A stretch of 64,000 nucleotides of DNA from contig NMRA01000533.1 in the NCBI GenBank assembly GCA_002633005.1, forward strand, positions 234,494 to 298,493, in the 5' to 3' direction. Position 1 is the stretch's first letter. Each line of letters starts with the position of its first letter. The notes under the pieces were generated by a model, which did not search any database, was not told where the DNA came from, and saw nothing but the letters and a program-made list of their open reading frames with translations. The DNA comes from Phoronis australis (lineage: Eukaryota; Animalia; Phoronida). A program made the translations under genes and the position numbers. Below, piece after piece: positions 21,112 through 62,826 of the stretch.

Positions 21112-24100
21112 TCAAATTCGTATCAAGGTCTTTCTACTCAGCTCTGAAATCCAAGCGTACAGAACAGCTGCACTCGCGTCACACGCTTCGACGTCCTTCT
21201 CTGAAACATCCCCAAGAATATCCAATGCCTTTGTCGCAACATCTGGTCGAACATCTGATATTTGTAAACCGTTTAAACGCTGTAGCAGTTCTGGGTCACC
21301 AGGAGTGTCTTCCAACGTGAAAAAACGTCGGCATGACTCCCAGTCTATAACATCCTCTCCAAGGAGCAAAAGAGTTGCTTTGACAACGCTAAAAAGTGCT
21401 TTCGGTGGTTCGTCACAATTCACCATCGACCCCAAACTATCGGAATTGATGCTGATAGCTGCCGATTTCAATAAATCAAGCTTTAGTAGTCCATCGTAAA
21501 GCATCTGTGCAGTATCGAGTTCACATTGCAAGTGTTTTTTAACCGAAGATGTTTCTGCTGATAACATTGCATGATGGAGAGCAGCCATGTCCTTATTGTT
21601 TATGGCCTCTTGAAGAGGTAATTTTAAGGGCAGAACAGCAAGATTCTTTTTAACATTTCGCATTACAGCCTGATTTGGCGAGGCGTATTGCTTGTTTTTG
21701 GCTAAAAATTTCCTGTACTCATCCAAATGTAGATTGATGTCGTCAACGTTCCCAGCAGCGATGGCCTTTTCTATTGTCGACAGATATTTGTTATGTTCAA
21801 TTTGCACGCGTTCTGTAGGTGCTAACATACTTTGAAGTGTTTCCTGGGCTTTGTCGATTAAATTCTGGTCTAAAGTAAATTTAGGGTACAGTTGAATGAA
21901 CTTCTTGTATTCCTTTACCTTTGCCTCAATTAGGGATTTGTCTCTATTTGCAATAGCTTTGAAGGCGCTTGTCTTAATTGAATTGTACAGCTTATCCAAA
22001 TCTTTGCCCTCCTCTAATGCAGATATCTGACATACAGCTTGATTTGTCACCTCCGTGTCTTCTTCCACAGAACCTTTGTGTAGCTGAATGAACGCCTGGT
22101 AGTTGTCCAGGGTAGTTCGTATTTGAACAAGCTTCGACGAGGCCATGGCGTCTTGCAGCTGTCTCCGTAACGAAAGCTCCTCATGCTGCTCAGCGTCTGC
22201 TTTCCTATGTTGCTTAAGCGCGTCGTTAACTCTAGTTATAAGTTTCTTGTCTGCCTTCGTGTCGCTGGACTCGCAAAATTGATTGTAGTCAGAAAGCAGG
22301 CCTTCCATTGCTGTAAAGTCGTTTCCTGTCAGTGCCTCGTTTATTTTTTCTATTAATGTCTGAGCTTTGTCTGCGTTTGCCTTTATTGCCATCTTCTTTT
22401 TGATAACAGTCTTTGCGTCGCATTCAAGCTGGGTGTCAATCTCCAAACTATGCACCTTGCAGTATTCCAAGTAGTCTTCAAGCCTCTGCTGAATCGTGCT
22501 GTAGTTGTTTTCCTTTACGGCGCGTAGCAGCCCGTCTTTGAGGCAGGCTTCCTCTCTCATGGTGATCGCCTCTTCTAGAACGTCATCTTCGTGTAGCTCT
22601 TCATTCTCCATCAAACAGTGATCGCACATGCCAATCACCCAGGCGTACATGGAACCTGCTCCATGGCTAATCTCTCGCACCTGCTCCTGTGTGAAGCCTG
22701 CCAATAGACGTTTGGCACGATCGGCTACCTTCGGTCGCAGTCTGTTGATGTCGTACTCACGAATGCGAGCCAACAATCCAGGGTAGTCGTGAGTACGAAT
22801 TGTGGTGCTCCGTCTCTGACAGGTCGCCCAGTCATTCACTTCACTTTCCGGGTCGCCTAGTATAAGAAGTGTCGCTTTCACCACCTCATGGACAAACCGA
22901 GGTGGTTTTTTGTATTTCCTGATCTCTTGTAAAAGGTTTCTGTCAAACTGAAGCAGCGCAGATTTTGCCTGTTCTATATTTTCTAAGCTACAACACAACT
23001 CTTTTGCCGTATTAAGTTCGAGCTTAAGGCAATGTGCACGTCCACTCTCGTTGATAGTTTCAATGGTCTCTTTAATACCTGTTATGTTGCGTTCTACAGC
23101 CGCTTCAATTAGTCGCGCTTTTAATTCCAAAATTTGGATGGAGTTTTCGGATTCCACGAGCAGATTTCCATCCAGGTGCAACCAGTGGCATTCAGAATGC
23201 GTTGCTTGCTCCTCTGAAACGAAGCCTACGTAACTCGCTAGGTTGTTGGCGATGTCAGTCTTGTTGTCTGAAAAATTTGACTCGATCAGCGCATCTTTTA
23301 ACGCCTGGTGTTCACATTGTAAGCGTCTTACTCCTGCAGCTATTTCTTGTAACAAGTTTTTCGTGTCCCGTACAAGTCCATCATCGGCGACTACAAGGTC
23401 GTGGTACAACATATGAAAGTGCTCGTATTTCTCCAGCGCCTTTATGATTTCTTTTTTGTTCCGAGCCTCATAAGCAGTATGCAATTCGTCTGCTATACTG
23501 TCGTGAACGTCCACAAAGTTGTCCCCGTCTAATTGCATACATTCCAAAATCTCGATCATGCTGTACGCCAAGTCTGTAAGTTGAGTATTGACAGTGTCCA
23601 ATTGTAAGTTGTCACTGTAAAATAGATTGATCTTTTTCAAAACTCGTTGAAGTTCTTCGATGCACTTTTCCTTGAAAGCATCCTCTAACTGTTTTCGCAG
23701 CTCAGATTCCCCAAAAGCCACTGCTTGAAATTTGCCAATCGTCTTTTGAGTCTCCCTTTGCAACTCCACGTCGATTTCTACATTGTCTCTTACGTGGTGA
23801 GACCGACAAAACTCTTCATACTTTGAATGAGCGTCAATGATGTCTTCATAGATTTGTCCTCTCAAGGTAGTTTTTAACTCTTCTTTCAAGAACTCTTCCT
23901 CAGCTCTAATTATCCTCTGACGAGTTTCGTTGATTTCTTGTTCTCTCGCCTGAGTGTCAACAGCCATGAACTTGCAATATGTTTTGTACTGGAATAGATT
24001 TTTGGCTATCGCTGACTCGTCCCTCTCAATTAAAGACTTCCGAAGCCTATCTTTCATAACAGTCTGGCGGCGAACATCATCAACGCACTTCTTGCGCTCC

Positions 24101-24542
24101 TGGTCAACTTTCAATATCGCTTTACGAATGAGTGTCTCATCGGCTTCTATACCAAATTCCACGTGCTCTCGGCAGTAATTCTTGTATTTGGACAAGTAGT
24201 AAGTAACGTCGCAAGCAGAAGCCATCTGAACGGATTCCGCGAGCCACGCTTTGATAATGTCATGCTCGTTTCTAATTAGCGATAGGCGAGCATCGTCTAC
24301 ATCATTCTGGGTCTCTTGTTTACACGATTCAGTTCTTGCCGCATCTAATGTTTGATAGGAAGCAACGTCGAAAGCCTTGATAGACTGTTCTATCTTGATG
24401 CTCTTGCACGACTTCGCCTGCCTCTGTAGTATTTGCTCCACTTGCCGTTTCCGCTTTCGCTGCTGCCTCATCAAGAGAGCAGTGGTAAGTATAAGTAGGA
24501 ACACGAGCGATACCACTAGCGGAGCTAGCCAAGCTGCTGTGT
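21112..24542 (-). CDS. Terminal 3431-nt exon: TM helix, basic juxtamembrane stretch, helical repeats, two dynein-MTBD-like domains
   Basis: Lies within the 1154-aa ORF. Acceptor TTGAC...TCCCATGTTTCAG is in phase 1. WLAPLVVSLVFLLILTTALLM is followed by RQQRKRKRQ. MTBD-like segments lie at ~22628-22960 and ~21135-21465. Confidence 0.9.
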
Positions 24543-27500
24543 CTGAAACATGGGATACGTCAACGATAAAGCTCATTGTCGATAAATTGGGTGGTTAGCA
24601 GAATGAAAAGAAAATTTGTCAACAACTGAGTTATTCCTTTGATTTTAGGGATAAACTGGTTTCCACTAATGCCCAGTCTTTGCCACGTTTTAATTCCCAC
24701 CAATTGGTTTGAAGATGCTAAGAATCCACCTTCTATCAATACGCACTTTTGTGGAAACCAGTAACAAATGAAATGACTGCTGCCTCGACCAGGGTTCAAA
24801 CCCGGGACCACCTGCAATCCGTGTAGACGTGCTTGTCCGCTAAGCCACAGAGACCACAGAATTCTAATCACACGTGTGTTTTGAAGAACTTCGCGTCCAT
24901 GTTGTCAGATATTTGCAAATGCGAGTGATCAAACCAGACTGTGATTCTGCATAGCATAGGCACACAGTAATTTGTGATATCATCACGTGAACTTGTAATT
25001 ACAATCGTGCGTTTTCTGTTCATGCTTGCATATGGTACACCTTTCATTTTATTATTAGTGTTTTGTGTGTTTTGGGTCGTCTTCACGTCTTTTATTTTGC
25101 ACATTGTTTGTAAGGAACCACCACGGACACAAGTGTCTCCCTTTCTGGTGTTACACTGGTTGTGCAGATATTATTTTTCTCATGTTCATATACTAACGTT
25201 TTATATCACACATATACATATACGTTGTACAATAAATGCAAGACCAAGAAGTGAAATAACTGGTATACTGACAATAACTACTGACAAATAAAGTCGCGTG
25301 CAACGGACTACTTTCTCTGAACTCGATAACTCTCTCGAATTCTCACTTATCAGCTGATTACCTGAAAAACAAACCGAAAATACTACGTTTGCCGACAGAA
25401 TAAAATAAAATAAAATAAGAAACAATTGAAGTAAGCTAACGTATATATTAGTAATTTCAAAAAAGTGAGTAAAAAAGCGCAATATGAACCAAGAATGATA
25501 CGATAAAAGCTTTTGTTCGACTAATGAAATACAGGCCACTCGTTCGACGAACTCGATCATTGAAAAGGCGACAATATTGTTTACGAGTTTAGGTACAAAC
25601 AAAAACATGTATTCTAACAAATCAAAAGAAACCAGGAAAACATAGATGCAAACATCGTTTTCTGCAATTTCCTCAATATCGTCTGCTCACTCTCCGCCGT
25701 CCAACTGAGTCAAGACGGCTTATGTTAATGTTCACTTGTTAACAGCTGAATTCATTGTAGTTCCAGTTTCATAGTTGTCAAAGACTAGTTCGATGAGTGT
25801 TAAAATTATGTTTGCCTTGTTCTTATCTTTATCTGCTTGTTTGAAACTTGAGAAGATTATCCACCGAGTCTGCGCTGTCGCTTTCCTTCGACATAGTTAA
25901 TTTATGTGGACGAACGTTTCGTGACAAATATTCCTACGCACGAAAGAAATCCAGTCCGGGCGAAGAAACACGATGAAAATTGCCAAAATGTGTGGTATAA
26001 AAATGTTATACGACGTGTGTTGAAATATGGGCAGTGATGTGGTCTCGGCATGATCAGAGTGAAAATACTTCACTTTGATCATGCCGCGACCAAATCAACA
26101 TACGTCATACAACCTATTTTTATTTGCTGTGTTTATTTTTATCAACTCTGGCATTTTTACTGACATTCATTCATATGTATCGTGTGCACAGCACAATAAA
26201 TTCGATAAATCAATCACACAAGCATATAAATCGGTAAATAAAACAACAAGAATGGATCAACTGAAATTTGAAATTTTCGGATGTAACAACTTCCTGTTTT
26301 TGTTGATAAAGAAAGTTGTTACATCCCAAAATTTCAAATTTCAGTTGATCCATTCTTGTTGTTTTATTTACCGATTTATATTCTTCATTTCATGAAACAA
26401 TAGTATCCTTGGGAGGATCTGGATCGCCTTATTTAGTTTCAGATATATTTTCTACGTTATTTATCACACAAGCATGAAATACTTATTAGATTTACAGCAT
26501 ACACTCACTTAAAGGCGGAACCCAAACACCAACTTGGCCTGTAAAGAAATATCAACATGTAGGGAAGTGATGAGATCGCATTTATAGTACTTACGTGGGA
26601 ACGCTACATTTATTATTAAAAACTAATAGCTATCAAAAGCACAATTCTTGCATGCAAATTGTTCGTTAAGAGGCCTGCACGTTTTTCTGGCATGCATGCT
26701 TCTTAAACCCAGCAGATTCGGAGTTTTACTCACCAAAGCAGTAAGCTGCCGGGCACGTGGGAAGAGCTGGGAGCCAATATGCCACAGTTCCGTTGCCACA
26801 GTTTTTCACTTTAATAGCAATACGCCGACTGCAGCATTCTGTGCCTTGAGACAAGCATGCTTTTGTTTCCATGACACCAGCGTCTGCTTCTGGTATTGAA
26901 CCTGAAATGAATCACTAGTTGATAAAAGGCAGTTGATCATCAAGAGAAGTCAACTTTTCATCTAGCGGCATCTAGCGGCTCACCTAGCACTATGATTTTG
27001 CTAAAAGCTTGTTATAACGAGGTTTTGTCACTTTTTCTAACGAGAAAATGTTCACCGGAAGTTTTTAGGGTTCACTTTTAAGAGAATTGTGTAAAACCAC
27101 TTAACGTCCAGATTTCCTTGAAATTTGTTCAATGCTTATTTAGTGACTTTCCCTCGAACTCATACAACAAAACACTAGCCTAGGTCAACTAGTAAAAGCG
27201 CATATATTCTAAAAAAAAGACCAGAAATTATAAAAATATGTTTTATATTTATAGGTCATTATTATTATTACGTTACCACCTTTTTGAGTCAAAATTTCAT
27301 TTTTAAGAAAGGCACATTCATAGGACAATAATCCCTTGGTTAATTTTAATGAAAGCCGTTTCTAAATGAAAGCTTCACAATTTACCTCAAAACGATGTTA
27401 GGAATTTTCGATTACTCATTTAGTTTTGTTTCTATGCCAAACTGACTTGCAAAACATAAGGTATTTTTGTAAAAACAGCAGTCATATTTGTCTATCTTAC

Positions 27501-30500
27501 AGTACGCAAAAACTAGGCGTTTAAAAGGAAAACACAAACAGCTTTTTTGAGATTGGTGAATAAGTACTAAAACTGGAACGTTTTAGAGAATCTCACCAAT
27601 CGTTTTCGAGGACTCGCGTTCCTAAGTTCAAGTTGAGTCGATATGTCAAAGCCGAGAAAAAGCGAAAAACGTAACGAGACTTCAAAATCTGACAGTTATA
27701 ATTCCTTAATTATTAATCTATACAGGATTAACTGTGAACGCTATTTCAACATTGAATAGCAATGTCAACTGAATTTACAGTGCAAAATTAATTTAATTAT
27801 TACTAAAAGGTTTTAATTTCGTGCATGGGGCTTCATTTACCGCGAATTAATTAGTTCAGAAGGCGGAGCCAGCAGTAAGTAGGCCAAAAGTTCATTGTAT
27901 ACACACCACGCGCCCTCCACAAACGCGTCTCAGTCTCTCAATAACGTTTTACACTTGCTACATTTAGCTGATTAGGTATGACGCCATGAAGTCGCCACTG
28001 CGAGAATCAAAATCAGACAACAATTCTCTCTAAATTTGTTGTAGACTTCGTGTTGACTTCCAAACTATTAACAGTTTTCCTTTGTTTTTTTCCTTTGATT
28101 CACAATTGGTTTCGTGAAATCGCGCATTTACCACCACGCTTCAATTAGAACAGGAAGTAAACAGACAGAAGTCGTAATTGTTCGGAAAAATCGACCAAGA
28201 ATTGCGAAACTCGCGCCATCAGTCCATGCGGTTGTCTTCGGTCTACGTTCGTTGGCCGGCGCTAGAATTTGAATTGAGAATGAAAGTTACGCCTACAGTT
28301 TTATACGCCAACTGGGAGGATAGGAAACCTCGGAATTGATTTGTACGTCTGAGATTTTCAGTTCTGACGATCTCAGATTTCGTTTTGCGACCTGGGATAT
28401 TTGCCAAGTCACCAAATGCGACTTGGCGTTCAACTAAGTGTAGAGCGCTGGAATCCATGACTTTCTAATACGACCGATACTCTTTGTTAGTCCGATAATT
28501 ACGTCCTGACAACTATGTCTAGTCCAGTCACATTATGAGTGAGAAAGATGATCAGAACCAGCGCGGGTTCAAATCGAGAACTACGTTCTGGTGACGAGCT
28601 GAATCGAACTTGATATGTGACAAAGTATTTTAAGCGCCCTATTTGTCAGCTGAAGTCACCGGCCTTGATTTCATCGAACGTCTGACAGACATCGGCGAGA
28701 ATTGGTGATTTTACTATTTTGTAGCTGTATAAGATGAATGTCCATCCTTAACACCCACTACCATGGAGTATAAAAAATCGCGGAACACTAACTGATTTAG
28801 TTGTTTAACTTAGTGCATATGTTGCGTGTTGAAAGGGTGGTGAAAAGGGCTGGTCTATTTTCGGCGCATTGCCCTTTAGTGCATTCAGAAGCCTCATTTT
28901 TTTAAATTAGCCGAGAATAGTTGTCATTAAGAATTAGCTTTCTTTTCTGAAATTATGATAGTAATACGATATTTTGAAAAAGTCACCCACTGACTGGAAG
29001 TTTAAATCACACACGTTATTTCTTATGCTATGTTTTCTTGTATTAAATGTTTTAAAGTCGACTGAACCATTTGAGCGAGTAATGCCAAAAAATGTCTTTA
29101 ACCCTTGCAAGCACTTCACCTTCCATCCAAACTGGGAACCGCGTGCCACATCTGTTTTCCGGTACACACGAAGTGGGCATAGTCAGGGCTTCCCCAGTGT
29201 GGCCAGGGGCGACAAACACGTACCATCCCTCTTCCCAATCGTCCTTGTCACAACTGAGCTCACCACGTGCACCTGCCTCGCTGTCAGTCGGGTGTGCAAC
29301 GAAGAGCCTGGACGCCACCTGTGGGCCGTAGTTTATTATCGTGATCTGGTTTTCGATGGCTACACAGGCCGGCCCGAGCTTCACGACACCTGGTGAACAA
29401 AAGTAATGCACTTCATATTAATGTATGTCACAATGAAAAATAGCGACAGACGTTTACTTATTCACTTATTGCAATGCAAACAAGAACTTGGCCAGCGTTC
29501 TTTTTGAGAAATTCGCGAGTGCACACTGGTTGGACACTATTCGCATTCTGGCAGCCGGGGCTTTGGAAACTGAAGCCGCAGAGGCTTTTGGTTCACTTCA
29601 TAATGTGAGAAATACGCCGTCTGTTGATAAATGTAATGAACGTAAGTAACATTGACTTTTCAATTTCACTCACGACACTGACACGTCTACAAAATTTCCA
29701 CCAGACGGCAATGTTTTGTGGCTCACAAACCAAGTATAATTGCGTCAGCCACGCCGCGACAGTGTATATGTTTGTACGAAAGTATCAACTCCACCTAAGC
29801 AGAGTGGCGCAGTGGAAGCGTGCTGGGCCCATAACCCAGAGGTCCGAGGATCGAAACCTTGCTCTGCTACAATTTTTTTCGTTGAAGCGTAAATTGTTTA
29901 ATGTAATGCTTTTCTCTGTGACTTCGAAAGTGGTCCTGCACCAGGCTAACAATTGCGTTTTTATATTGCTGAGTTAGTCAGACAATTGCTGTTCTCTTAT
30001 CACGTCACTGTATAAAATCCGGTGATTCAGATTCATGGGTCGTTGTTGGCCAAGACGCTGTTAGGAATAGACGTCAAACTTCATTGAACTGGCGGGCAAA
30101 CGAATCCCGTGGAGAGGTCTCTTGAACCTAGGCTATGAGTGCAACCTGGATTCTAGAAAAGCGACTACAAATTTTGTCTTGAGGACCAATTTTATCTCCT
30201 CTCAGACTATTAAAGTAATCTGTATAATCTCTAAACAACCTGACAGAAATTGTACATTGAAATATGTGTATTTCGTGGTCAAAGGATTTCGGTTTTTGGA
30301 AGGAATTTAATGCTTTGATGAAAAATATATGGTCATACCTACGCAATAAGACGACGGGCACTCCATCGTTGGCGGAAGCCAATAGGCGACACTTTTAGGG
30401 CCACATTTCATCACTTGGATGTCGATAGTATAGCTGCAGCAATCCTTCTCAATAACAACACACGCTTTCCTGTCCACAATGCCGTCACTCTGTCGAGGTA

Positions 30501-36500: not shown

Positions 36501-39500
36501 CTGCATTTTCTATCAAAGATACCTAAAGGAATTAATCAACAATGGTCCTCGAAAGTCAAAATAATATTTTTGTTTCTTATTTTTAAAAAAAATGGACAAA
36601 CTATTAAATAATTTGAAATTAACTAAATATTCACTGAGATAACAATGTATTGTGAGTATAGATTGTTTTGAAATTCGCCCACAGATAAGTTGCATGAGTT
36701 TTACCGATAACACTCAAATAACAAAGACAATCCAAATTATGTTTTATTATTGAGAATTTTTACAAAAAAATGAAGAAAACAACCGGAAAGTACTTGAAGA
36801 TGCTTTAACTCAAAGTTTGAGGCTACTAACATCGTCTCAGAAAATTTGAAAAATTGTCGGGTTTCTGGTCCGATCCCCGGGTTCCTGTTTTAAAGGTCGG
36901 GGTTCGTGCTTTTCGGGCTGGTAAGCTGTTTCGAAGGTGCGGAAGTCTGTTTTCGACTCCCGGATATCTGTTTTACACTGGGGTTCTAATTTCGATGGAA
37001 CACCTTGCATTAGTGACGCACGACACTGTACACTTTCGTATAGCGACTGTGCCGGTTAGTGCTCAAGTCGCTTTACTCTTCACTTGCCCTTCATCCAGAT
37101 GGGGTGCTGTGTGCTGCACCGATAAACAGGAACACATTGATTCGGCATGTTCAAGGAGGTCTTCAAGTCTTTTGATGCAAACACGTGCCATCCTGGGAAC
37201 AAAATTTATTAGAAATTCAAATAAATGTGATTTTAAAGAAACAACGTTGCTGTCCCTCGTTCCTTATAACCTAAAATGGCCCTCGATATCGGCTCACATT
37301 TGTATGTTATTTTATGTTATTTCACGACCATCGGTACTTTTGTCTTCTGATTGGCTGAACGCGGTACGACAACATCGGATACTGCGTACCAACGTTGTGA
37401 GGAACACCACTTTTCATTCATGCCGCCCGGAGGTCAGATGCTGCAATTCACAATCTGACCTATCAGACGCTGCGAAGACCACAACCTATCGGCCTTTAGC
37501 ACCGGGCAATAATTGCTTTCTTCGAGCCCTAGCATATGACATGGTACCATCCTCGTGATTGTTCCAAATCTGTGTATTGTCAAGTCTTGCAGGAATCTCT
37601 TTTTACAATTAAAGTCTCAGAACAAAAACTGATTAGATAACTTCTCCCATGGCCGGTTTAAATCTGGGGTACGATTGGTTTTGAAATGATACACATTCTT
37701 GAGAAAATGAATTAGGTGTCTTGGCTCTGAGATAACCAACCCCGCTTGCCCATCAACGGCCTTCCTTGTCTATCAATGACCTTGAGCTTCCCTGTCCATC
37801 AGTGCCCTTGAGCTTCCCTGTCCATCAATGACCTTGCGCTTTGTTGAACAACAAGAAGTATCGTTAAGCATTAAACCGAGGATCACTTCAAGGTCTGTTT
37901 TGACATAATTTGTCGCACTTGACACATATTGTCGCTCGGGCAACAATACGTGTCGGGTGCGACAATAAATGTTCACGACAATCCCACATCAAGAACAAGG
38001 AATGGAATACACTACCTCTATTCGAAGTACACTTTGAAACCTCAGAAACAAATTGAGGACTGGTAATTTCACAGAACAGGCTGGATAAGGTGTTCTTAAC
38101 TGAGGTGTAATACTCAAAATGGTTCACCGTAAGCAGTCAGGAGTCTTCCTAAATGCGGGTTTTGTCTTACCACTGGTCCACCATTGATCTTTGTCACACA
38201 GCAAGCCGTCAACGCGACTTGTCTCGAATGCTACAAACCCTGGAGTCACGTAGCTGCCTCTCGCCCCCTTGTGGATCTGGTATGGCACGGTAATTAATGG
38301 ACTTCCTCTGAGAGTGCACTGGTCACCCGGTAGGCCTGAGAATACAACACCAGCGTTCTAGAACAGAGTTGCGTTCAGTAGACGCAGATCAGTTGCAAGA
38401 GCGGTCTTAGCTATAGAACGAAAACAGTTAAATAATTCTATCTCATGATTCAACATTCCAACCTCGTAAGTTAATCAATTCAGTGGCCGCAGTTTTCCTT
38501 ATGCAGCTGGTAAGGTACCGCGCATACGTCTTTCACTCTCGTGATTTTGCGTTTATTTTGCGTGATTTTGCTTTTTCGAGAGTTTTTCTTTTTCTTCGAA
38601 AATAGTTGCGGGAGCTTTTTTTTCCAGTTGGAAAGATATAAAGACACTCATTTCCTTCAAAGGGGCCCATCTACTCTCGAAAGATGCAAAAAGTAACGTA
38701 ACTTTACCACGATTAACAGTAATTTGGAGAAAATCTCCCGGCCCTTGATTAGGATTTGCAATCGTCTACTATCATTGCTACTATGTACTCTATGTTCAGA
38801 GTGGTTCTAGCTCAGGTGTGTTTCAGGCTAACATTACATTGACGTCAGCTGTTACGGGCTAGCATTACATTGACGCCAGGTGTTACGGGCTAGCATTACA
38901 TTGACGCCAGTTGTTACGGGCTAGCATTACATTGACGTCAGGTGTTACGGGCTAGCATTACATTGACGTCAGGTGTTACGGGCTAGCATTACATTGACGC
39001 CAGGTGTTACGGGCTAGCATTACATTGACGCCAGGTGTTACGGGCTAGCATTACATTGACGCCAGGTGTTACGAGCTAGCATCACATTGACCCCAGGTAC
39101 TGTTACGGGCTTTCAAACTTGAGTCCGTAGCTAATGTCTGTTTTTTTATACTTCAGACGTTTACTAAAATCACGATTTTAGATACCGGTCTCCGAATTGC
39201 AATTTAAAGTCTTGACTGAGACTTCCCCAATAGCGGAGTTGCAACGCCGCCATATTGGAAATGGGTCAGAATGTTGCATTGTGGTTAAGCCGGTAAACAA
39301 GTACGTCGGCAAGCGTGGGGGCGAACCGCCCACAGGGATATTATACGTGTTGTGTGCCTGGCATGCTATAATACCAGTTAACGAAATAAAAAATTTAGTT
39401 ACTACCTGTTTCCCAAGGATCAAGAACTGCGTTAAACATGGGTCAGAGACATCGGTAGAGCTGGTAGCAAAGGCCGACTTCGTGAATTCTTTCCGACTTC

Positions 39501-42500
39501 GTAGTATAAAGTGTGCAGCGCTCATTTTGAGGGCGGCAAGAAAACGTATCCTAGAAACTGCCCAACAATATCTCCCTTCAAAGAAACAGTAACAAATACT
39601 CCACGGCGGTTGGTAGTGAAAAAAAAATTGTTTTCGCTTGACCAGAACCAAGCCAACATGAGCAATTTTGAGGATAATGCCTCTGCACAATCACCTGTTC
39701 TGGGTCGACTCACTTAACGTATGCNNNNNNNNNNNNNNNNNNNNNNNNNNNNNNNNNNNNNNNNNNNNNNNNNNNNNNNNNNNNNNNNNNNNNNNNNNNN
39801 NNNNNNNNNNNNNNNNNNNNNNNNNNNNNNNNNNNNNNNNNNNNNNNNNNNNNNNNNNNNNNNNNNNNNNNNNNNNNNNNNNNNNNNNNNNNNNNNNNNN
39901 NNNNNNNNNNNNNNNNNNNNNNNNNNNNNNNNNNNNNNNNNNNNNNNNNNNNNNNNNNNNNNNNNNNNNNNNNNNNNNNNNNNNNNNNNNNNNNNNNNNN
40001 NNNNNNNNNNNNNNNNNNNNNNNNNNNNNNNNNNNNNNNNNNNNNNNNNNNNNNNNNNNNNNNNNNNNNNNNNNNNNNNNNNNNNNNNNNNNNNNNNNNN
40101 NNNNNNNNNNNNNNNNGCTGTCGGATCTTTCAATTGATAAATTGGAGACGTTACAACTGTAGGTAAGGGCATTTTTCGCATGTAGTTCATGGGCTGGGCG
40201 CTTACTTTAGCAAAGTCTGAAAACGCGTTGGGGCACTTGTTGAGCCATGGGCGCTAATTAGGGCGAATACCGGCAGAATTACATACAGCAGCGTAGTTTA
40301 ATGCACACAAATTACACGTTGTGCAAACCAGTCGGTCATCCCGTTTACCATCAACAATCCCAGTAGCCTTTGCGCACCCTAATTTCCGGACATGCGCAAT
40401 CGTTAAATCGATTCGGTTGCAACTCCGCTATTAACCAACATAGGTTTGCGTACAGGGTTATTGGGGACTTAATGCTTTAGTCGTGAAAATCACCTTTCAT
40501 TGACCTTGTAATTCTCCCATGGGCGTTCTCACGAACAACGTTTTATATCTTGACTACAAATATTTCCACATAAACAATACATATACAATCCCACACACTG
40601 TATACTTTTTTACGATCACCTTCATCTCGGTTTCTCATGAACCACAGACATATCCTTGCCAAATGCAACTGTAAGTCACGGGAATAGTTAGCGAGAAAAG
40701 AATTGTCGTGCCTAAGAAGTGAAATGAATTGAGTTCATGAGATAAAGAGCTTGGGGTGTAGACCAGTTATCATGTTTTATGAACTTCAACAATTCGGGTG
40801 CTGTGTTTAGAAAGAATGTAGACAGCAGTAGCCATACGTAATGCGCCTGACCTAAATATTGGGACGCTAGATTTTCAATGACACACGACGAAGACGTTGA
40901 TCTTACCAAAACAGTACGCTGCCGGGCACGTGGGTACGGCTTCCAAGAAGTACACGACGGTACTGTAGCCACAGTTCTTGACCCGTATGTCGATTGTGTC
41001 GCTGCAACACGACGTTAGGGGCACACAGGCCTTTCGCTTCACCACGCCATCACTCGTGGAAGGAATGTTCCCTAACGGTCAAACACACTTGGTGTTTAAA
41101 CTAAATCTCTTCTGACTGGATGCATTTACTTTATGAAAAATTACGTCAAAGACAATTTCATTATCAGTTTGATACTTAACAGAGACTGAATACCTTTTAT
41201 GGGCGCTAAACATTAACAAATTCTGAACAATCATATTTTGCGCACAGGCAATTTGGGGTCTACTTGAACGACAAGATCGGAAATGGAAAGGACTGCGGAA
41301 CAGTGTCGGATCTAATTAGTCGTACTGGGGATCCAACCATGATTTTTTTGAAAGAAATTGTCCGAGAAAATCCTAAAAACAACTTGCTGACGACATTTGG
41401 TAGTATCCATAGGGATTGGACCCCTGATAAACTAAATCCGCCGTAAAAGCAGAGCATCATTTTACTGTGAACGCATTGCAACATGCGTGTCCAGTTGATC
41501 AGTGAAAATTTTTCCAAACTAATTTGTGAAAAAGATACCAAACCCACTTTTGGCCTATTGACAGTTCTATGAAACGAAATAATGCCCTGTAACCCTCGAC
41601 AGCCGCCGTAAGTTTGGAGCAAAATTTGAAAACCCCTTTCAAAGTCTGCTAAACGGGCAAGCGTGACCAACGCTTTAGGCGAGTTACACGGTAACTGTGA
41701 AGAAAGACCACACACCAAGAACCATAATATTCAACATGTGACACAGGGAGCATGATTTTTAGTTTAACCATGCATTTATCACTCAAGTGGGACACCAATG
41801 GCGCATTAACAGATGACAGAACGAGGGTTAGTTAAAATCACCAAAAATGGGTTTAGTACCTTTTTACTAGAGACACAGATTCATACTGCCTGACCTTGCA
41901 TCCAGATTGGGTATTTGGTACCACATCTGTACTTTCCCACACATGACGTCGGCATGGTGAGCGCTCTTGCCGCATTCGACGGCGCCTCAAACACGTACCA
42001 ACCTGTTCGCAAAGCAAATTCAGAATCCTACATTCTGTCATATTAGCTGTGCAAACGTTAAATGAACTCTTTTGAGTACTAGGAGTAAATAAGCGTAAAA
42101 AACTCTTTTTGTATGACGGTACGAACAAAATGTGAGCGCGTCCCGCTCCAATTTGTCTCCCTCAGGTTGCCATCAATTTTCACCTTCCGGTCGCCACCTC
42201 TCCTCCGGTCATACACCATCGTGAATGGATTTTGGAAGGCTACGCTTAAAACTCACCTGGCTGAAAAGCCGAGCTCTTGCCGTCGCATAGCAAAGCGTCT
42301 TCCGGCATGTTCACGATGGTGTTGATATACGTTGCCCGGTCGTTTTCTAGCGTATACACCATAGTCTTTATGGTCTCTTCCAACCCGCATTGACTTCCCA
42401 TCTCGCCTGAAGTATATGACTGTTAGTCACGGTTAACATTTTATACATAGTCATTTTTACAAACACATAAAACACTTGCGGTAGGCTAATACCACTGACT

Positions 42501-45500
42501 ATGACAATGCTATTCATGATAACAACAAATAACAAGTTATAATTGCACGTGAAACAACGACACCGACTTTTGTAGTAAAGTTAAACAGCAATAAAATCCA
42601 GTTATGAGAATAGCAATCAAAACCCGCTTTAAGGGGATTCTACACAAGTTTAATTTGTACTTTTATATCTTCACATTTTGTGTTTTGGTCTTTGCCTACT
42701 ACGCTTTTTCAGCAAACTGTGTCGAAACCCCCTTAACAAACTTTTGATCTCAACTTGATCTTTTCTCGGACAGTTAGTGTAAGTTTTGATCCTGCAAAAA
42801 TGGCAGTTCTATGTAATTCCTCGAGACCATGCTGGGCGCATCAAATGACACGTGACAAGTTCTGCAGAGCCTGGTCTCGGGAAATAACGACTGTCAGTTC
42901 TTTACAGGTCCAAAACTTAACACAAATTGAATCAAATCAAGTGATTCGTCAATAAAAAAACACATGTGTCTCAACACAAGAATTACGCACATTATGAGCT
43001 CAGGATGTCCACGTGCATCATTCCGTCCAAATAGATTTTAGAATAAAAAGTTCGTTTTCTATATTGACGGGAAGGGGCTCGATTTTACGACATATGTCTA
43101 CATTACAAACTGGAAGGTTCATTTGAACCATATAATCATTCAGCAGCCTAGTAGGCTATATAGGCAGGTACGACATGCTAAACTATTTTTACCAAAGCAG
43201 TACGCTGCTGGGCATGCGTAGTTCCCAGACAGGAAGTAGGCTACTATGCCGTCTCCACAGTTCCTGACCTTCATCGATTGTCTCTGGAGGCAGCAACTGT
43301 CGCCAACAGTGACGCAAGCAGCGGCGTCTACTGTCACTCTCTCTTCATTCGGTATCCGACCTGCGGCAGAACAATGTCGAAAGGTCTAATGCTTGTTCGT
43401 GGCTTTTGCTGTATTATTGTACGACTACTGATACTTCTGACCCCTGATTGGCTGGAACGTGGAACGATAACTTCCGTTATTGACCGACCTCGCTGCGGCC
43501 ACTTTTCTTACATGCCACCCATCAGATGCCGCTATTTGCGATCTGACCAATCAGACTCTAAAGAAACCACTGACACATCCAGCTTCAATTATGTGGCACT
43601 CACTTGTTGAGTTGGCTTAGAATTTGGACTACTGTACTGCATATGAAGGCTGCGAATGACTTTTGCTTGACTTTTTAGTCTGATCTGATTGAAAGCCTGT
43701 TACATGCTCAGTCCTTGACCCACTCTTTGCTCTGTGGTGACTTTCGAAAGTTTCATTGTGTTCGTGAAAGTGGCAGTTGAAATTAGGCAGGATTTGAAGG
43801 TACTGTCCAGTTACGTTGGAGTTGTAAAAAGTATAGTTTGTGGACATCTATCTTTCATCTGATTTTGCAATCTGGAGAGTTTTGGTAGTATGAATGCACT
43901 GTATCTCAGCTCATAGTAATCGTATGGGAATGGCCTAGTACATACAATGCTTTCTCGCGCTTTCAGTTACTGTGCAATGTATGTCACCTAATAAGCATTT
44001 TTAAAAAATCGCATGCAATTGGCGGCTTTGAAGTGAAAGCTGACGATTTGGTATATTTTTGCTCGTTTTTAATGATACCGTTTCCTGTACATTCACCAAT
44101 TTAGAACACAGGGGGAGTTTTGTTAGACGGCGAAAGATATTATTAAAACATAAGCATTTCGTAACTTTCAATCATGTTTGTGTTTGCTTGACTTACTATT
44201 ATTGTTTTGTTCTGTTAAAAGGCGGACGAGGTTTACTGGGAAACCTTATTACTTGTGGCAGAAGTTGAGTGAGTACCCAGAATGCATGTTTCAGCTGTAA
44301 CTAACTACGGCAGCCATTTTGTGTGGTGGTGCACCACCGAAAATAAAAATTAAACTAAAAACTCATATTGATTTCAGTTAAGTTTGGAAATATTTGGAGT
44401 TGTATGAAAGGGCTTACGTTTCAAGTGAACTAACTTGCTTTAAAGTTCGTTTTATGAAACTTTTGACTAAAACAAAGCAGAAAGAACAGCCTTATGATAG
44501 CCGGCTCCACTCGTGGTAGTCTGAAAGATGGAAATTTCACTTTGTAATCAGTCTTGTTGGACTTTGTGCAAGTTGTTTAAGTCTTTGGGTCGGTATACTG
44601 TTCATATCATTAGTTCAGTGAAAACGTTCTTTCTTCCCTGCGAGAACTATTTTGGATCATGCTTAAAGAAAATATGAAAAAGGTAAACGTATGTATTGAG
44701 GTAAAACATCTGAAATATAATTTGCTTAATCGCAGACCAAAGTCCCTCACCGATTACATTTATTTTCTTGAGCGTGCAGCCCATATTCAATGTACAAACA
44801 CGGAACTTTCCACACTTTTGTACCTTTCATCCAAACAGGGTTTCGTGTTCCGCAGTGATACTCAGGCAAGCAAGACGTCGGCATGGTAAGTGATTGGGCC
44901 GAGTCACTGAAGGCTTGGAAAATGTACCACGCTACAAAAATCAAAGAGCGAGTAACTATCTGTATCCAGACCAGTTAGATATGACACAAGTCGACGTGAA
45001 GGTGATAATTAAGATGAATGGCAAAAGCGTATGAGGCGAGTGAAAAGGACTGTTGTGACGTAGGACGATAAATTCCCCAGACAGAGAAGTCCGGGAACTT
45101 ATTTCATAAAAAATGACCTTTCATAGTCAGAAATTTAGTCTTGCGCTCTGTATATTTGTTTCAGAAAATAATAATTCAAAAACGTAATGCAAATCTGAGA
45201 ATGACGACTACTTTGTTGGTCGTTGACGGGGGTAACAACAGCAAGGTTTAGATTTGTGGTCGATGGTTGTTGACTTCAAGGTGTCAACGCAGCAAGACAA
45301 CGTCAGAACTGGGTGACGTTCCGCACACGTGAGAACCTCATTAAAATGCAAGAATTTACGAAGTGCCGACATTTATTGCGAGCACACTACCTTTGATTCT
45401 TCCTGTTCACCTACCTTCATCCCAGTTTTGTCCTCGTTCGTCGCAACGTATCTCTTTGCTTTTATCTGTCCTCATATAAGCAGCACGGTTCGACTCACTC

Positions 45501-48038
45501 TCTGTGTACGGGACAAATACAAGCGCACCGTGGTTCGGCTCAAGCTCGCACAAATCATAAGGAATACCTAACGGAACAACGAGAATGCGACAATCGAATT
45601 AGTGATGGTTTTGCTAGAAGCAAATGGTCAAAAATCCGTTTCACTGAAACTGTTTGACGGCGTTTTAGTGAAAGTTTAGTGTGTTGGTCTGAATGTCGTT
45701 TCAACACGGCAACTTTGCAATCTTTCCGGCTAGCCCACAAGACAATCCTATTCATTACACCACATTACAACCGGCATGCCGTGGCTACAGGCAGTCAATA
45801 GTTATAGACGGCTTGTCAGAGCAAAATAATTAATATGCATAAGAGCACATGTACACACATTGGTGTTAAATGAATGTTACTGACGGACGAAAAACACGTT
45901 TTTGAACTTCCTGAAGTTATTAGCTTTGATCAAGGGCCCTTTTCACGAAACTGACTTTAGCTCATTTTCGACTTGGGTCTAAGATTTGTCTCAACCACCA
46001 AACTTTGAAACTTCCACTCGCGGTAAGTTAGTCAAATTAAGACAAAACTTAAGTCAAAAACTTAAGTCAAACTTCTTGAAACGGCCTTGATACAAATTTA
46101 AGTTTTATATTAAATTTGACATGAATTTAAGATTTGTCTGGGCTAAGTCAGTATTCTTGGAAAGGGCACCATAGCTATAAAACAACAACGTCCGCTGTGT
46201 TTTTGTTATTGTATTTCAAGTCGCCAAGTCGCTCTATTTTGTTATGAAAATACGCATAAAATACTCTACCTCGTAGCGCCTGCGATTTGGCTCAGTAGTG
46301 CACAGAGGTCGGTTGCCTCTACGGAGATATTGAATTTGATTCCGTGCCACTGCTAATTTCTGTCAAGTTACTTTTCTTGCCGATTAATTCGGGGCTTTCA
46401 AGAGATTTCAAACTTTTTTGAATAAACTATGCAATTGCCACTAAATGCATTTGATTGGTCACTGTTCCATCACTGTATGTAATGATACCGCAATTACTTT
46501 TGGTCATGGAAAACATTAGCAGAGTTAGTTTATTACACATCATGTGTTGTGTAGTGAACGTTTAGTTCTGTGTGGGTACCGATGGCCTATTTACAAGGAA
46601 CAAATCTAGATATGCATCTGCATACATATATACTGCGAGGGTTTAAAATATACAATATGTGCAGATGAATAATTGTTTAAGTCTAAATAAGGAACAAAAC
46701 ACTTTAGGGATGATATCTTGTAGGTTTACCTTTTCTTAGTTTATACCACGCGTGGAAGTCTTTGTTCTCAGTGAACTTTATTCGTCCAGTCGATTCCACA
46801 TAGTAACATTTCTTGTTCACCAACCTGTAGCTAAATGCCAAGCAGTTGGTCAGGAGGCAGCATTTGCTTACGCACGACGTCTCCGAAGGTACGTTCTCTA
46901 CTCTGTCCCACTTTTTGTACTCAATACTCTGATATGGTGCGCGTCTCATGTTGCAGGAACCGCGAGTTTCGCGCAGGTCTTCGACTAAGATGAAATGAGT
47001 AGAATACGTTTTCTTTCTATGGACCTGTACGTGTTCTTCAAAAATTCATAACAACCGTGTTTGACAACAATGCAAATGGAAATAACGCGAAAACTTGACA
47101 TGTCTACCCATGGGTTGAACTTTCCTACACTTGCAGATTTGTAGCATTCAGTCCTGTTTAGTTGGCAAAAAAAAAACGAAAATCGAATTAGGTTTGTTGC
47201 TTTCAAGTCACTGGCGACGTGTACATGAGCCATTTTCGAATTCGCAATTTTAGAGTTGGAATAAACTCTGGAGCGTTTTCTTGAGTCACAATGTTCGTGT
47301 TGGTAACGGAAATATACTTTTTTCATGGTGAGGCCCAATTCGGTTTTCGTTTTAGCCAGCTAAACTTGGTCAAATGCAGCTTTTTAAACCCGTCCAAAAT
47401 CCCTAGCCTCGACGGTGCTTAGTGAGTTTAAAGTGAAGTTTATCGCTGATTCGCGCATGTTTTGCATGTTCTGCCTCCAACTAGCCGCAAGCAGTCTCGG
47501 CCCATTGAAATACTTAGCAAAACAAAACTTCATTATATGCTACTTAAGTTTAGGATTCCAAGTACGATTCTTGTCAGTAAGAACATACGTACGAAACCCC
47601 GGAACTGAGTATGCACCCATGATGTATGCGACAGTGTTGTAATGGCTACACTTGGGTGACTTCGCCGGTTCCGCCCTGGTCAAGCGGTTAAGGCATCTGA
47701 TTGGTTTGTAAGCCGTATAGCCGTCGAAAACCAATCTGGTTGGTGCTTGATGGCTACATCCGGCTTACAGACTAATCAGATGTCTTGGGAGTTTCGATCC
47801 GGCGAGGAACCGGCGAAATCAATCAAATGAGATAGCATGTGGCTGCGTACATCGATAGTTCAATTCGAAAACAGGATTTAGTTCTTGTATTTCATTGCAC
47901 CGACCAGTTTGCCAAAAGCCCATAACAAGATCAAGAATTGGCTGTTGATCTGTTCGACTTACCCGCTTGGTTCGAGCAACTGACTTGGTGTGGTCCCAAA
48001 AGTGCGCAGAGAGTCGTCAAAAGGGATAATGTCAGCAT
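21112..48038 (-). CDS. Predicted ~1971-aa type I membrane protein: signal peptide, PAN/apple, 5x UMOD/GP2/OIT3-type D8C, TM, helical repeats, 2x dynein-MTBD-like (17 coding exons)
   Basis: Exons: 47963-48038, 46730-46984, 45415-45567, 44824-44931, 43193-43360, 42257-42406, 41895-42002, 40907-41071, 38171-38335, 37088-37192, 32797-32964, 32414-32563, 31943-32050, 30339-30506, 29120-29389, 26734-26901, 21112-24542. All introns are phase 1 with AG acceptors and GT donors (one GC). Internal exon lengths are multiples of 3, there are no stops, and the total is 5916 nt. Joining them into one transcript is inferred. Confidence 0.8.
24630..24858 (-). mobile_element. Probable tRNA-derived SINE
   Basis: The minus strand has an A-box-like TGGCTTAGCGG and a B-box-like GGTTTGAACCC at tRNA spacing. 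There is no proper cloverleaf, and an unrelated body follows. Confidence 0.55.
26224..26381. repeat. Near-perfect foldback palindrome, ~70-bp arms (small MITE)
   Basis: ATATAAATCGGTAAATAAAACAACAAGAATGGATCAACTGAAATTTGAAATTTT..GATGTAACAACTT is mirrored by its reverse complement after a ~17-nt loop. Confidence 0.85.
26734..29389 (-). CDS. D8C repeat 5 (exons 29120-29389, 26734-26901)
   Basis: AC...LSCDKDDWEEGWYVF...MPTSCVPENRCGTRFPVWME|GSIPEADAGVMETKAC...CC...VKNC...CPAAYCF. Confidence 0.85.
29798..29869 (+). tRNA. Initiator tRNA-Met (CAT)
   Basis: AGCAGAGTGGCGCAGTGGAAGCGTGCTGGGCCCATAACCCAGAGGTCCGAGGATCGAAACCTTGCTCTGCTA has the A1-U72 pair, GGG/CCC anticodon stem and GATCG T-loop. A T7 Pol III terminator follows at 29873-29879. 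Confidence 0.97.
30339..32563 (-). CDS. D8C repeat 4 (exons 32414-32563, 31943-32050, 30339-30506)
   Basis: EC...HRCDSYYWTE|GWFMF...MPTSCVPEYRCGTKSPVWMN|GTIPRQSDGIVDRKAC...CC...VMKC...CPSSYCV. Confidence 0.85.
32797..38335 (-). CDS. D8C repeat 3 (exons 38171-38335, 37088-37192, 32797-32964)
   Basis: QC...LLCDKDQWWTS|GWHVF...MPNQCVPVYRCSTQHPIWMK|GNVPTEMEGVVLRQAC...CC...VKNC...CPSAYCF. There is a GC donor after the middle exon. Confidence 0.85.
33073..34333 (-). mobile_element. Non-autonomous Helentron-associated element (HINE/DINE-1-like)
   Basis: Subterminal IR ACTCTGCGCGTG (33109-33120) / CACGCGCAGAGT (34319-34330), extra IR at 34306-34315, and terminal hairpin TTATTGTCAC-GGC-GTGACAATAA (33083-33105). 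Also an (AAGAAT)n microsatellite (~34240-34278) and ~430-bp internal tandem units starting near 33241, 33674 and 34108. Confidence 0.75.
34475..34970 (+). mobile_element. Penelope-like element 3' fragment (GIY-YIG C-terminus) with inverted pseudo-LTR copy
   Basis: AIFSHLCATGHDFNTDDVTILDCEEDWLKRRVKEALHERIESPTLNKRGGLR. ~34475-34540 is a diverged inverted copy of ~34900-34970. Confidence 0.8.
36331..37006. mobile_element. MITE with ~150-bp imperfect TIRs
   Basis: AGGGTGTTCCATTGAAAC...CGAACCCCGACCTTTAAAACAGGAACCC mirrors GGGTTCCTGTTTTAAAGGTCGGGGTTCG...ATGGAACACCTT. Confidence 0.8.
37773..37836. repeat. Short tandem repeat, 26-bp unit x ~2.5
   Basis: CAATGACCTTGAGCTTCCCTGTCCAT is repeated. Confidence 0.8.
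38825..39111. repeat. Minisatellite, 31-bp unit x ~9
   Basis: GGGCTAGCATTACATTGACGCCAGGTGTTAC tandem copies with no spacers. Confidence 0.95.
39333..39600 (+). pseudogene. Degenerate THAP zinc-finger domain (transposon-derived)
   Basis: CCVPG-C...SYYLFPKDQELR*TWV...YKVCSAHFEGGKKTY...PTI, with stops and a frameshift. Confidence 0.7.
39725..40116. other. Assembly gap (N run)
   Basis: 392 N. Confidence 1.
40907..42406 (-). CDS. D8C repeat 2 (exons 42257-42406, 41895-42002, 40907-41071)
   Basis: QC...LLCDGKSSAFQP|GWYVF...MPTSCVGKYRCGTKYPIWMQ|GNIPSTSDGVVKRKACVPLTSCC...VKNC...CPAAYCF. Confidence 0.85.
42629..42736. mobile_element. Small TTAA-flanked MITE (Kolobok/piggyBac type)
   Basis: TTAA-GGGGATTCTACACA ... 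TGTGTCGAAACCCCC-TTAA. Confidence 0.6.
43193..45567 (-). CDS. D8C repeat 1 (exons 45415-45567, 44824-44931, 43193-43360)
   Basis: C...RCDERGQNWDE|AWYIF...MPTSCLPEYHCGTRNPVWMK|GRIP...ACVTVGDSCC...VRNC...CPAAYCF. Confidence 0.85.
45933..46170. mobile_element. MITE (PIF/Harbinger-like TIRs)
   Basis: GGGCCCTTTTCACGAAACTGACTTTAGC ... GCTAAGTCAGTATTCTTGGAAAGGGCACC. Confidence 0.55.
46730..46984 (-). CDS. Coding exon 2: PAN/apple-like domain
   Basis: SCVSKCCLLTNCLAFSYRLVNKKCYY matches the PAN pattern C-x3-C-x5-C-x-AFSY-x6-C. It is 255 nt with AG/GT ends. Confidence 0.75.
47644..47838. mobile_element. Foldback MITE, family A copy 1
   Basis: GGCTACACTTGGGTGACTTCGCCGGTTCC ... GGAACCGGCGAAATCA, with an internal IR CATCTGATTGGTTTGTAAGCCG / CGGCTTACAGACTAATCAGATG. 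Confidence 0.65.
47963..48038 (-). CDS. Coding exon 1: signal peptide MLTLSLLTTLCALLGPHQVSCSNQA
   Basis: ATG, hydrophobic core and VSC cleavage-like site. Donor is G|GTAAGT in phase 1. An acceptor near 48098 suggests an upstream UTR exon. Confidence 0.7.

Positions 48039-57499: not shown

Positions 57500-62826
<5,327 letters not shown>

What the first reader, a model, noticed from the sequence alone, without database searches (positions are those of the whole stretch)
21112..48038. Single-pass receptor coupling a PAN + 5x uromodulin-type D8C ectodomain to cytoplasmic dynein-MTBD-like domains
Seen: 17 exons splice in frame into signal peptide / PAN / five D8C / TM with positive-inside RQQRKRKR / ~1100-aa tail. 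The ORF track shows only the last exon and scraps of the others. Established: D8C/D10C domains of UMOD, GP2 and OIT3 are extracellular modules, and in UMOD and GP2 they form the decoy branch bound by bacterial FimH. The dynein stalk-tip MTBD (Pfam MT) binds microtubules. Inference: this may be a motor-less membrane-to-microtubule linker or sensor, for example tethering ciliary or apical membrane to axonemal microtubules while binding mucus, particles or microbes outside. I know of no described protein with this architecture.
Basis: partly seen in the sequence, partly recalled or inferred. Interest (0 to 1): 0.88.

Follow-up and report, generated by a model that had tools for sequence, protein, structure and literature searches.

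The report
Membrane receptor carrying dynein's microtubule grip
A transcribed invertebrate gene encodes a predicted cell-surface protein with uromodulin-type domains outside and, inside, two copies of the small domain that dynein motors use to grip microtubules but no motor, so it likely ties the cell membrane to microtubules; the same motor-less domain ends hillarin-like proteins and other predicted receptors in many invertebrates.

Summary
Confirmed, with one correction. Exons 1-14 are modelled, not read-checked. Outside: PAN plus five D10C domains with GP2's cysteine spacing, but without the FimH glycan site, so the decoy reading is unsupported. Inside: a duplicated cassette of helical repeats plus a dynein-MTBD domain. 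Module 1 folds confidently and matches dynein MTBD (Z 16.0; family profile E 9e-15), keeping 4 of 6 tubulin salt-bridge residues; module 2 keeps none and is acidic. The module belongs to a family of 707 hits: it mostly ends hillarin/KY-like proteins and also follows a single membrane helix in acorn worm, tunicate and amphioxus proteins with other ectodomains. None of 172 fetched proteins has D8C. Best reading: a motor-less membrane-to-microtubule tether (0.5); rival: the fold reused as a scaffold, as Chlamydomonas RSP2 suggests (0.33). Ten literature searches found no description. This scan already noted motor-less MTBD proteins in other genomes (several protist), but no receptor.

The parts
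47963..48038 (-). Exon 1: start codon and predicted signal peptide (aa 1-25); an in-frame ATG lies 24 codons upstream at 48110
   Evidence: Sequence; hydropathy 1.34 over aa 1-19; no signal-peptide predictor available; not read-checked
46730..46984 (-). Exon 2: PAN domain (aa 26-110)
   Evidence: Pfam PAN_1 26.4 bits, cut-off 21.4
43193..45567 (-). D10C unit 1 (exons 45567-45415, 44931-44824, 43360-43193; aa 111-253)
   Evidence: 10 Cys
40907..42406 (-). D10C unit 2 (exons 42406-42257, 42002-41895, 41071-40907; aa 254-394)
   Evidence: 10 Cys
32797..38335 (-). D10C unit 3 (exons 38335-38171, 37192-37088 with a GC donor, 32964-32797; aa 395-540)
   Evidence: 10 Cys
30339..32563 (-). D10C unit 4 (exons 32563-32414, 32050-31943, 30506-30339; aa 541-682); sequon at N626
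   Evidence: 10 Cys
26734..29389 (-). D10C unit 5 (exons 29389-29120, 26901-26734; aa 683-828); sequon at N809
   Evidence: Best solved match GP2 branch 7p6r, E 7.6e-4; exon 15-16 junction in 7 + 6 RNA reads
26509..26538 (-).
   Evidence: Both junctions in RNA reads: 5 + 8 and 10 + 8; canonical AG/GT
24472..24528 (-). Predicted transmembrane helix (aa 844-862) followed by a basic cluster
   Evidence: Hydropathy 2.64, the only window above 1.4
23143..24276 (-). Helical repeats 1-6, about 62 aa each (aa 928-1305)
   Evidence: Leave-one-out profiles against 200 shuffles
22978..23124 (-). Repeat 7: helical-hairpin cap whose last helix is the CC1-like stalk stub of module 1
   Evidence: Model; aligns to dynein stalk residues 3263 onward; family cap profile 21.1 bits
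22615..22977 (-). Dynein-MTBD domain 1 (aa 1361-1481), net charge +5, 4 of 6 tubulin salt-bridge residues kept
21640..22563 (-). Helical repeats 8-12 (aa 1499-1806)
21475..21639 (-). Repeat 13: cap of module 2
   Evidence: Family cap profile 27.6 bits against a shuffle maximum of 3.9
21112..21474 (-). Degenerate dynein-MTBD-like domain 2 (aa 1862-1981) and stop; net charge -8, 0 of 6 contact residues
   Evidence: 31% identical to module 1, E 2e-21; alone only E 0.3 to dynein; not folded separately

Best explanation
The gene is transcribed and spliced across exons 15-18 and encodes a predicted single-pass surface protein whose first dynein-type domain likely binds microtubules without a motor, which would tether the membrane, and whatever the outer domains hold, to the microtubule cytoskeleton. 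Shown: the coding sequence, the junctions from D10C unit 5 to the tail, the domain identities and the absence of AAA domains. Predicted: type I topology, the MTBD fold of module 1 with a short CC1/CC2 stub closed by a helical cap in place of the long stalk. Inferred: (1) PAN and five D10C units bind an extracellular protein or matrix ligand; (2) the helical repeats act as a spacer or scaffold; (3) module 1 docks at the alpha/beta-tubulin cleft through helices 1, 3 and 6 as in dynein, at one fixed and probably modest affinity because no ATPase ring slides the stalk and the helix-6 arginine is replaced; (4) module 2, acidic and without contact residues, no longer binds tubulin and serves as a structural end or partner-binding site; (5) the tail arose from the repeat-cap-MTBD cassette of hillarin/KY-like proteins, by repeat expansion and one internal duplication.
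For: Splicing. Fold: pLDDT 84.5; Z 16.0, rmsd 3.2, 141 aligned to mouse dynein MTBD 3err, the top five rows all dynein MTBDs; family profile E 9e-15 to DNAH6, all 60 rows shown dynein chains (one 4583-aa chain bears another label). Contacts: of yeast K3117, E3122, R3124, R3152, R3159, R3201 (PMC7042235 passages), module 1 has R, E, R, A, R, E by the alignment to yeast 6kjo (read by eye); two arginines sit mid-helix 3, where that paper says Dictyostelium dynein uses alternative basic residues. Across 142 modules from 129 of the 150 hits, the E3122 position is Glu in 137 and the R3124 position Arg/Lys in 108; 98 of 142 have net charge of zero or more. [quoted passage not shown] Seven of 150 hits place the module after one strong membrane helix, with EGF, VWA or CLCA-VWA ectodomains in four named ones. 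Leech hillarin is reported at the axon hillock (passage).
Against: No binding or localisation data. The R3201 position is Glu in module 1 and is Asp/Glu in 55, Arg/Lys in only 24 of 142 family modules (Arg/Lys one place earlier in 78), and the K3117 position is basic in only 36 of 142. Module 2 keeps 0 of 6. The conserved Glu could be structural. The same fold occurs in a Chlamydomonas radial-spoke chain (7jtk_C Z 11.8; RSP2 7jrj_I Z 7.1), whose C-terminal part lies on the spoke-head surface (passage), so the fold can be used away from a microtubule lattice. The hillarin-family functions seen in passages involve septins, the cleavage furrow and actin-like patterns, although whether those proteins carry this domain was not checked. 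Exons 1-14 and the signal peptide are not read-checked.
Confidence: 0.5

Rival explanations
1. The receptor is real, but its MTBD-fold modules are repurposed protein-interaction domains. They recruit a cortical partner (septin, actin-associated or signalling proteins) shared with hillarin/KY-like proteins and do not bind the microtubule lattice.
For: Family-wide swap at helix 6 (acidic residue at the R3201 position); module 2 without contacts; radial-spoke chain with the same fold; hillarin linked to septins and the cleavage furrow.
Against: The helix-1 Glu-x-Arg motif that contacts tubulin in dynein is the best-conserved polar feature of the family (137 and 108 of 142); module 1 is basic (+5).
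Confidence: 0.33
2. The tail is a regulated microtubule binder or dynein competitor: ligand binding, tension or proteolytic release changes the register of the short stalk through the repeats, or lets acidic module 2 mask basic module 1, so that binding is switched and not constant.
For: In dynein, CC1/helix 1 movement sets affinity; the cap's last helix is continuous with CC1 in the model; modules carry opposite charge (+5, -8).
Against: No data on intramolecular contacts; the whole-tail model is unreliable (pLDDT 45.9); 101 of 142 family modules end within 60 aa of the C-terminus as a single copy in most proteins.
Confidence: 0.1
3. The 5' part of the model is wrong: some of exons 1-14 belong to another transcript or are skipped, so the tail is joined to fewer outer domains.
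For: Only exons 15-18 were laid with reads; intron 8 holds a 392-base gap; intron 10 needs a GC donor.
Against: All 14 D10C exons lie in order on one strand in phase 1, each unit has exactly 10 Cys, units are 39-49% identical, exon 15 has no start or signal of its own, and no other D10C exon exists in the window.
Confidence: 0.05

Closest known systems
Dynein heavy-chain microtubule-binding domain (Pfam PF12777 MT core; PDB 3err, 5ayh, 6kjo, 6rza; best sequence match DNAH6)
   Same: Fold (Z 16.0), helix order, paired prolines after helix 1, the two tryptophans, helix-1 Glu-x-Arg, short CC1 and CC2 helices.
   Different: No AAA+ ring, linker or long stalk; closed by a helical cap; helix-6 Arg replaced; below the Pfam cut-off; sits in a membrane protein; second copy degenerate.
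Hillarin-like / KY (kyphoscoliosis peptidase)-like proteins of invertebrates (e.g. XP_069137733.1, XP_013404632.1, XP_009018530.1)
   Same: End in the same repeat + cap + MTBD cassette (best identity of module 1 to a family module 37%).
   Different: They are soluble by hydropathy and have transglutaminase-like and KY Ig-like domains (48 of 85 scanned hits carry Ig-like_KY); this protein has neither, and has 13 repeats, two modules and an ectodomain.
Uncharacterised predicted receptors with the same tail: Saccoglossus XP_077867321.1 (EGF), Styela XP_077966891.1 (VWA), Branchiostoma XP_078700756.1 and XP_035689228.1 (CLCA-VWA)
   Same: Ectodomain, one membrane helix, helical repeats, C-terminal MTBD module.
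   Different: Different ectodomains, one module, database gene models that were not checked here; none has D8C or PAN.
Uromodulin / GP2 / OIT3 / VWDE D10C domain (Pfam PF23283)
   Same: Ten cysteines; C3-C10 spacing 6-25-7-1-11-15-5 identical to GP2 in 4 of 5 units and off by one in unit 2.
   Different: Five tandem copies, longer C1-C3 loops, no hairpin cysteines, no FimH glycan site, no ZP module, membrane helix with a long tail in place of the GPI anchor (GPI anchor recalled, not from a call).
Chlamydomonas radial spoke protein 2 (PDB 7jrj_I; 7jtk_C is probably the same protein, inferred from residue ranges)
   Same: A solved non-dynein chain matching the module (profile E 0.048; Z 11.8 over 153 residues).
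   Different: Axonemal spoke-head subunit, not a membrane protein; the primary structure paper was not held, so whether its authors noted the likeness is unknown.

Membership tests
Dynein heavy chain | AAA+ ring, linker and tail | tested here: not met
   No such Pfam hit in the last exon; the 1981-aa model is fully accounted for by other domains
Dynein heavy chain | Long antiparallel coiled-coil stalk | tested here: not met
   Model shows a 26-residue helix before and a 19-residue helix after the domain, closed by a helical hairpin
Dynein MTBD domain | Six-helix MTBD fold | tested here: met
   Module 1: pLDDT 84.5, Z 16.0 to 3err. Module 2 not folded; inferred from 31% identity
Dynein MTBD domain | Sequence homology to dynein MTBD | tested here: met
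   E 4e-5 single sequence, 5e-7 two-copy profile, 9e-15 family profile
Dynein MTBD domain | Pfam PF12777 gathering score | tested here: not met
   14.5 bits against 24; the model also covers the long stalk, which is absent
Dynein MTBD domain | Six tubulin salt-bridge residues (yeast numbering) | tested here: inconclusive
   Module 1: 4 of 6; module 2: 0 of 6
Dynein MTBD domain | Binds microtubules | not testable with these tools
   No tubulin sequence available to the complex predictor; needs an assay
D10C domain (UMOD/GP2) | Ten cysteines with GP2 spacing | tested here: met
   5 of 5 units have 10 Cys; C3-C10 spacing as in GP2; relies on the exon model for units 1-4
UMOD/GP2 decoy module | High-mannose sequon at GP2 N65 or UMOD N275, and disulfide-bonded beta-hairpin | tested here: not met
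   0 of 5 units have either sequon (unit 3 has Asn at the N275 position but followed by Leu-Pro); no extra Cys pair. N626 lies at the exposed GP2 N122 / UMOD N232 position
UMOD/GP2/OIT3 ZP proteins | ZP module | tested here: not met
   Unit 5 is spliced through a 10-aa linker straight to the membrane helix
PAN/Apple domain | Pfam PAN_1 above cut-off | tested here: met
   26.4 bits against 21.4
Hillarin/KY-like proteins | Transglutaminase-like core and KY Ig-like domains | tested here: not met
   Not hit in the tail or in the ectodomain exons scanned
Hillarin/KY-like proteins | C-terminal repeat + cap + MTBD cassette (feature seen here, not a published definition) | tested here: met
   both modules fall with the capped modules in a quick tree, support 90
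Type I membrane protein | Cleaved signal peptide, one membrane helix, positive-inside | tested here: inconclusive
   One strong hydrophobic stretch and a basic cluster; Cys 6.8% outside against 2.3% inside; no signal-peptide predictor; exon 1 not read-checked

The most novel reading that the evidence does not exclude
Invertebrates have an undescribed class of surface receptors that bind microtubules directly through a dynein-derived grip. The capped MTBD is a mobile animal domain, present from sponges to tunicates, that ends hillarin/KY-like proteins and has been fused several times behind a membrane helix to different ectodomains (D10C, EGF, VWA, CLCA). It would give adhesion or sensing a direct, motor-free link to microtubules and give hillarin a molecular reason for sitting at the axon hillock.
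Probability: 0.4. Interest if true: 0.9.

Novelty: new variant of a known kind. Interest (0 to 1): 0.74.

Why it matters
The dynein MTBD is studied as the tip of a motor whose affinity is driven by the ATPase ring. A natural, capped, motor-less copy in a membrane protein would be a direct membrane-to-microtubule link and a natural test of what the domain does when the stalk register is fixed. The finding also assigns a fold to the unannotated C-terminal domain of hundreds of invertebrate hillarin/KY-like proteins and makes their link to microtubules testable with one co-sedimentation assay. If binding fails, it shows the fold reused as a scaffold across animals, as the radial-spoke match hints.

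Tried and rejected
No whole genome is held, so paralogues in the same species were not searched. Word-index homologue searches found nothing, nor did scans of viral and metagenome contigs; the full HMMER search then found 707, so those blanks were insensitivity. The single-sequence model of the whole tail was poor (pLDDT 45.9) and its Foldseek search gave no match at E 0.001; the repeats therefore have no fold assignment beyond the cap, which matches TPR/MIT-like hairpins at Z about 6-7.5, too low to name. No RNA holder was listed by the index; the runs came by species label. Run X3 shows depth of 0.5 or less on the last exon and the contig run X4 none; tissue is unknown, so this is not interpreted. 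Toxoplasma chain 9ya2_L (Z 8.7): the paper's two passages with the searched terms mention no MTBD; left as a weak lead. The FimH-decoy reading was rejected on sequons. The tree is a quick one, has no true dynein rows and leaves both modules unresolved, so no donor or order of events is claimed. ESM Atlas gave unnamed mollusc clusters at 0.86-0.90 and MT clusters at 0.77-0.83: leads only. No complex prediction was sent. The first self-BLAST printed nothing and was replaced by profile tests. Gui et al. 2021 on radial spokes was not held. Literature searches gave no listing that describes a dynein MTBD in hillarin/KY proteins or in a receptor; the library lacks most subscription papers, including Ji et al. 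2001 and 2005, seen only as citations. No supplements were read.

Full report
Gene. The window is animal-like DNA with spliced genes; no genome is held. Reading the minus strand gave 18 exons with AG acceptors, GT donors (GC at intron 10) and phase-1 junctions, forming one frame of 1981 aa. Three stranded RNA runs and one contig run of the same species label were laid on 19000-29700, about 18-19% of each raw run. X1 and X2 cover the last exon at depth about 10-32 on the expected strand, with few differing letters. They show three joints on the gene: exon 15 to 16 (7 and 6 reads), exon 16 to a 30-nt exon (5 and 8), and that exon to the last exon (10 and 8). X3 and X4 show none. The ectodomain and the tail are therefore one transcript at least from D10C unit 5 on. 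Exons 1-14 rest on the model: order, phase, cysteine count, and a profile search that finds these 14 D10C exons and no others in the window.

Outside. Exon 2 is a PAN domain. The five units are 39-49% identical and have 10 cysteines each. GP2's D10C cysteines (63, 85, 107, 113, 138, 145, 146, 157, 172, 177; PMC8930769, passages) give C3-C10 spacings 6-25-7-1-11-15-5, matched exactly by 4 of 5 units and off by one in unit 2. Exon 15 finds GP2 and uromodulin as its four best solved matches. The same paper puts FimH binding on a high-mannose glycan at GP2 N65 or UMOD N275, in a groove formed with a disulfide-bonded hairpin. None of the five units has a sequon at either position or the extra cysteines; the only two ectodomain sequons are N626 (the exposed N122/N232 position) and N809. 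The domain identity holds; the decoy function does not carry over. The ligand is unknown.

Inside. One hydrophobic stretch (aa 844-862) is followed by a basic cluster. The tail holds 13 repeats of about 62 aa. In leave-one-out tests 11 of 13 beat all 200 shuffles; repeat 4 was reached by 1 and repeat 13 by 8, but repeats 7 and 13 match the family's cap profile at 21.1 and 27.6 bits against a shuffle maximum of 3.9. The two halves align over aa 995-1474 and 1500-1970 (score 378, shuffles at most 72): a duplicated cassette of repeats + cap + terminal domain.

The terminal domain is a dynein MTBD. Module 1 finds DNAH6 at E 4e-5 and mostly dyneins below it; module 2 alone reaches E 0.3 and is 31% identical to module 1. 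A model from the two-copy alignment is confident (pLDDT 84.5, pTM 0.78) and matches dynein MTBDs in Foldseek and among 48,161 chains (Z 16.0, 15.8, 13.7, 13.4, 12.1). The match runs from model residue 26, so the cap's last helix plays CC1 and the last helix CC2, as a short closed stub. A 20-sequence family profile gives E 9e-15. Pfam MT stays under its cut-off, which explains why such domains go unannotated.

Does it bind? PMC7042235 (passages) lists six salt bridges: K3117, E3122, R3124, R3152, R3159, R3201. By the alignment to yeast 6kjo (read by eye) module 1 has R, E, R, A, R, E: four kept, one lost beside two arginines, one reversed with an arginine one place earlier. Module 2 has none and a net charge as low as only 2 of 142 family modules. 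In the family the helix-1 Glu (137 of 142) and Arg/Lys (108) are conserved, while the helix-6 position is more often acidic (55) than basic (24), with Arg/Lys one place earlier in 78; DNAH6 has the opposite order. These 142 include about 19 tandem modules of another type. The evidence is mixed. PMC6629372 (section 6) finds the MTBD primed for binding with only helix 1 moving, so a motor is not needed. Against this, a Chlamydomonas radial-spoke chain has the fold, and RSP2's C-terminal part lies on the spoke-head surface (PMC10774353, passage).

Family. The two-copy profile finds 707 of 1.84 billion representatives at E 0.001 or better; the best 150 are all 2303 aa or shorter. I scanned 85 of the 150 with Pfam (the longer and the membrane-bearing ones): 48 carry KY Ig-like domains, often with a transglutaminase-like core. 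Names were looked up for 30: hillarin-like or KY in scallop, mussel, oyster, leech and amphioxus, and uncharacterised or loosely named members in a brachiopod, tubeworm, sea cucumber, acorn worm, tunicates, a rotifer and a calcareous sponge. A hydropathy scan flagged 14 of 150; seven have one strong helix before the module, three have several, and four weak ones (1.9-2.2) were set aside. Four of the seven are named: EGF (Saccoglossus), VWA (Styela) and CLCA-VWA (two Branchiostoma); these are database models. None of 172 proteins fetched by then has D8C. The family's pre-cap repeat profile scores 8-13 bits on four places in the tail (shuffles at most 3.4), so the repeat array is probably an expansion of that unit. 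A quick tree puts both modules with the capped modules and apart from tandem uncapped MTBDs (support 90, not starred), and scatters the membrane-bearing members among the others with weak support. Hillarin is reported at the leech axon hillock and, in Drosophila, at the cleavage furrow with septins (PMC3081291 and PMC3718969, passages).

Novelty. Ten searches listed no paper on a dynein MTBD in hillarin/KY proteins or in receptors; most results were seen as listings only. Earlier notes of this scan report motor-less MTBD proteins in other genomes, several of them protists, and none with a membrane helix or hillarin; they are unchecked and are not support. All domains are known; the architecture and the animal capped-MTBD family appear undescribed. 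I class it as a new variant of a known kind, with a 0.4 chance of a new class of receptors that bind microtubules directly.

Verdict. Observation confirmed with an 18th exon; interpretation partly supported; most likely a motor-less membrane-to-microtubule tether (0.5), next a scaffold use of the fold (0.33). Interest 0.74.

Noticed in passing
window 53218-54917 (+): Exons of a dual-specificity phosphatase (Pfam DSPc), divergently oriented upstream of the receptor gene.
   Followed up: no
window 59442-60966 (-): JmjC-domain exon and a serine-rich exon; resembles JMJD6 (name recalled, not from a call).
   Followed up: no
window, intron 14 (29390-30338), + strand: A tRNA-Met gene lies in the intron on the opposite strand.
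   Followed up: no
window 3527-4135 (-), 15999-18707 (+): Fragments of non-LTR retrotransposons (RVT_1 and zf-RVT). Near-identical ORFs at 9871-10704 (-) and 63400-63999 (+) had no Pfam hit.
   Followed up: partly
window 38818-39098 and 39725-40116: A 31-bp tandem repeat of 9 copies and a 392-base assembly gap, both in intron 8.
   Followed up: no
window 26140-26496: A repeat in intron 17 with high read depth on both strands; probably a dispersed element.
   Followed up: no
PDB 7jrj_I 461-534, 7jtk_C 351-588: Chlamydomonas radial spoke protein 2 matches the MTBD module by profile and fold: a solved motor-less example.
   Followed up: partly
PDB 9fqr_Xl 1173-1491, 9ya2_L 1207-1457, 9e5c_2e 114-414: Axonemal and Toxoplasma conoid chains with middling fold matches (Z 9.2, 8.7, 7.5); may be helical coincidence.
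   Followed up: partly
P0018, P0037, P0053: Multi-pass membrane proteins (one CD20-like) of amphioxus and a rotifer also end in the module.
   Followed up: partly
P0038, P0048, P0049; P0060: KY-like proteins with a weak CARD hit before the module, and a Cyanophora NPHP3-like TPR protein with three tandem MTBDs.
   Followed up: no
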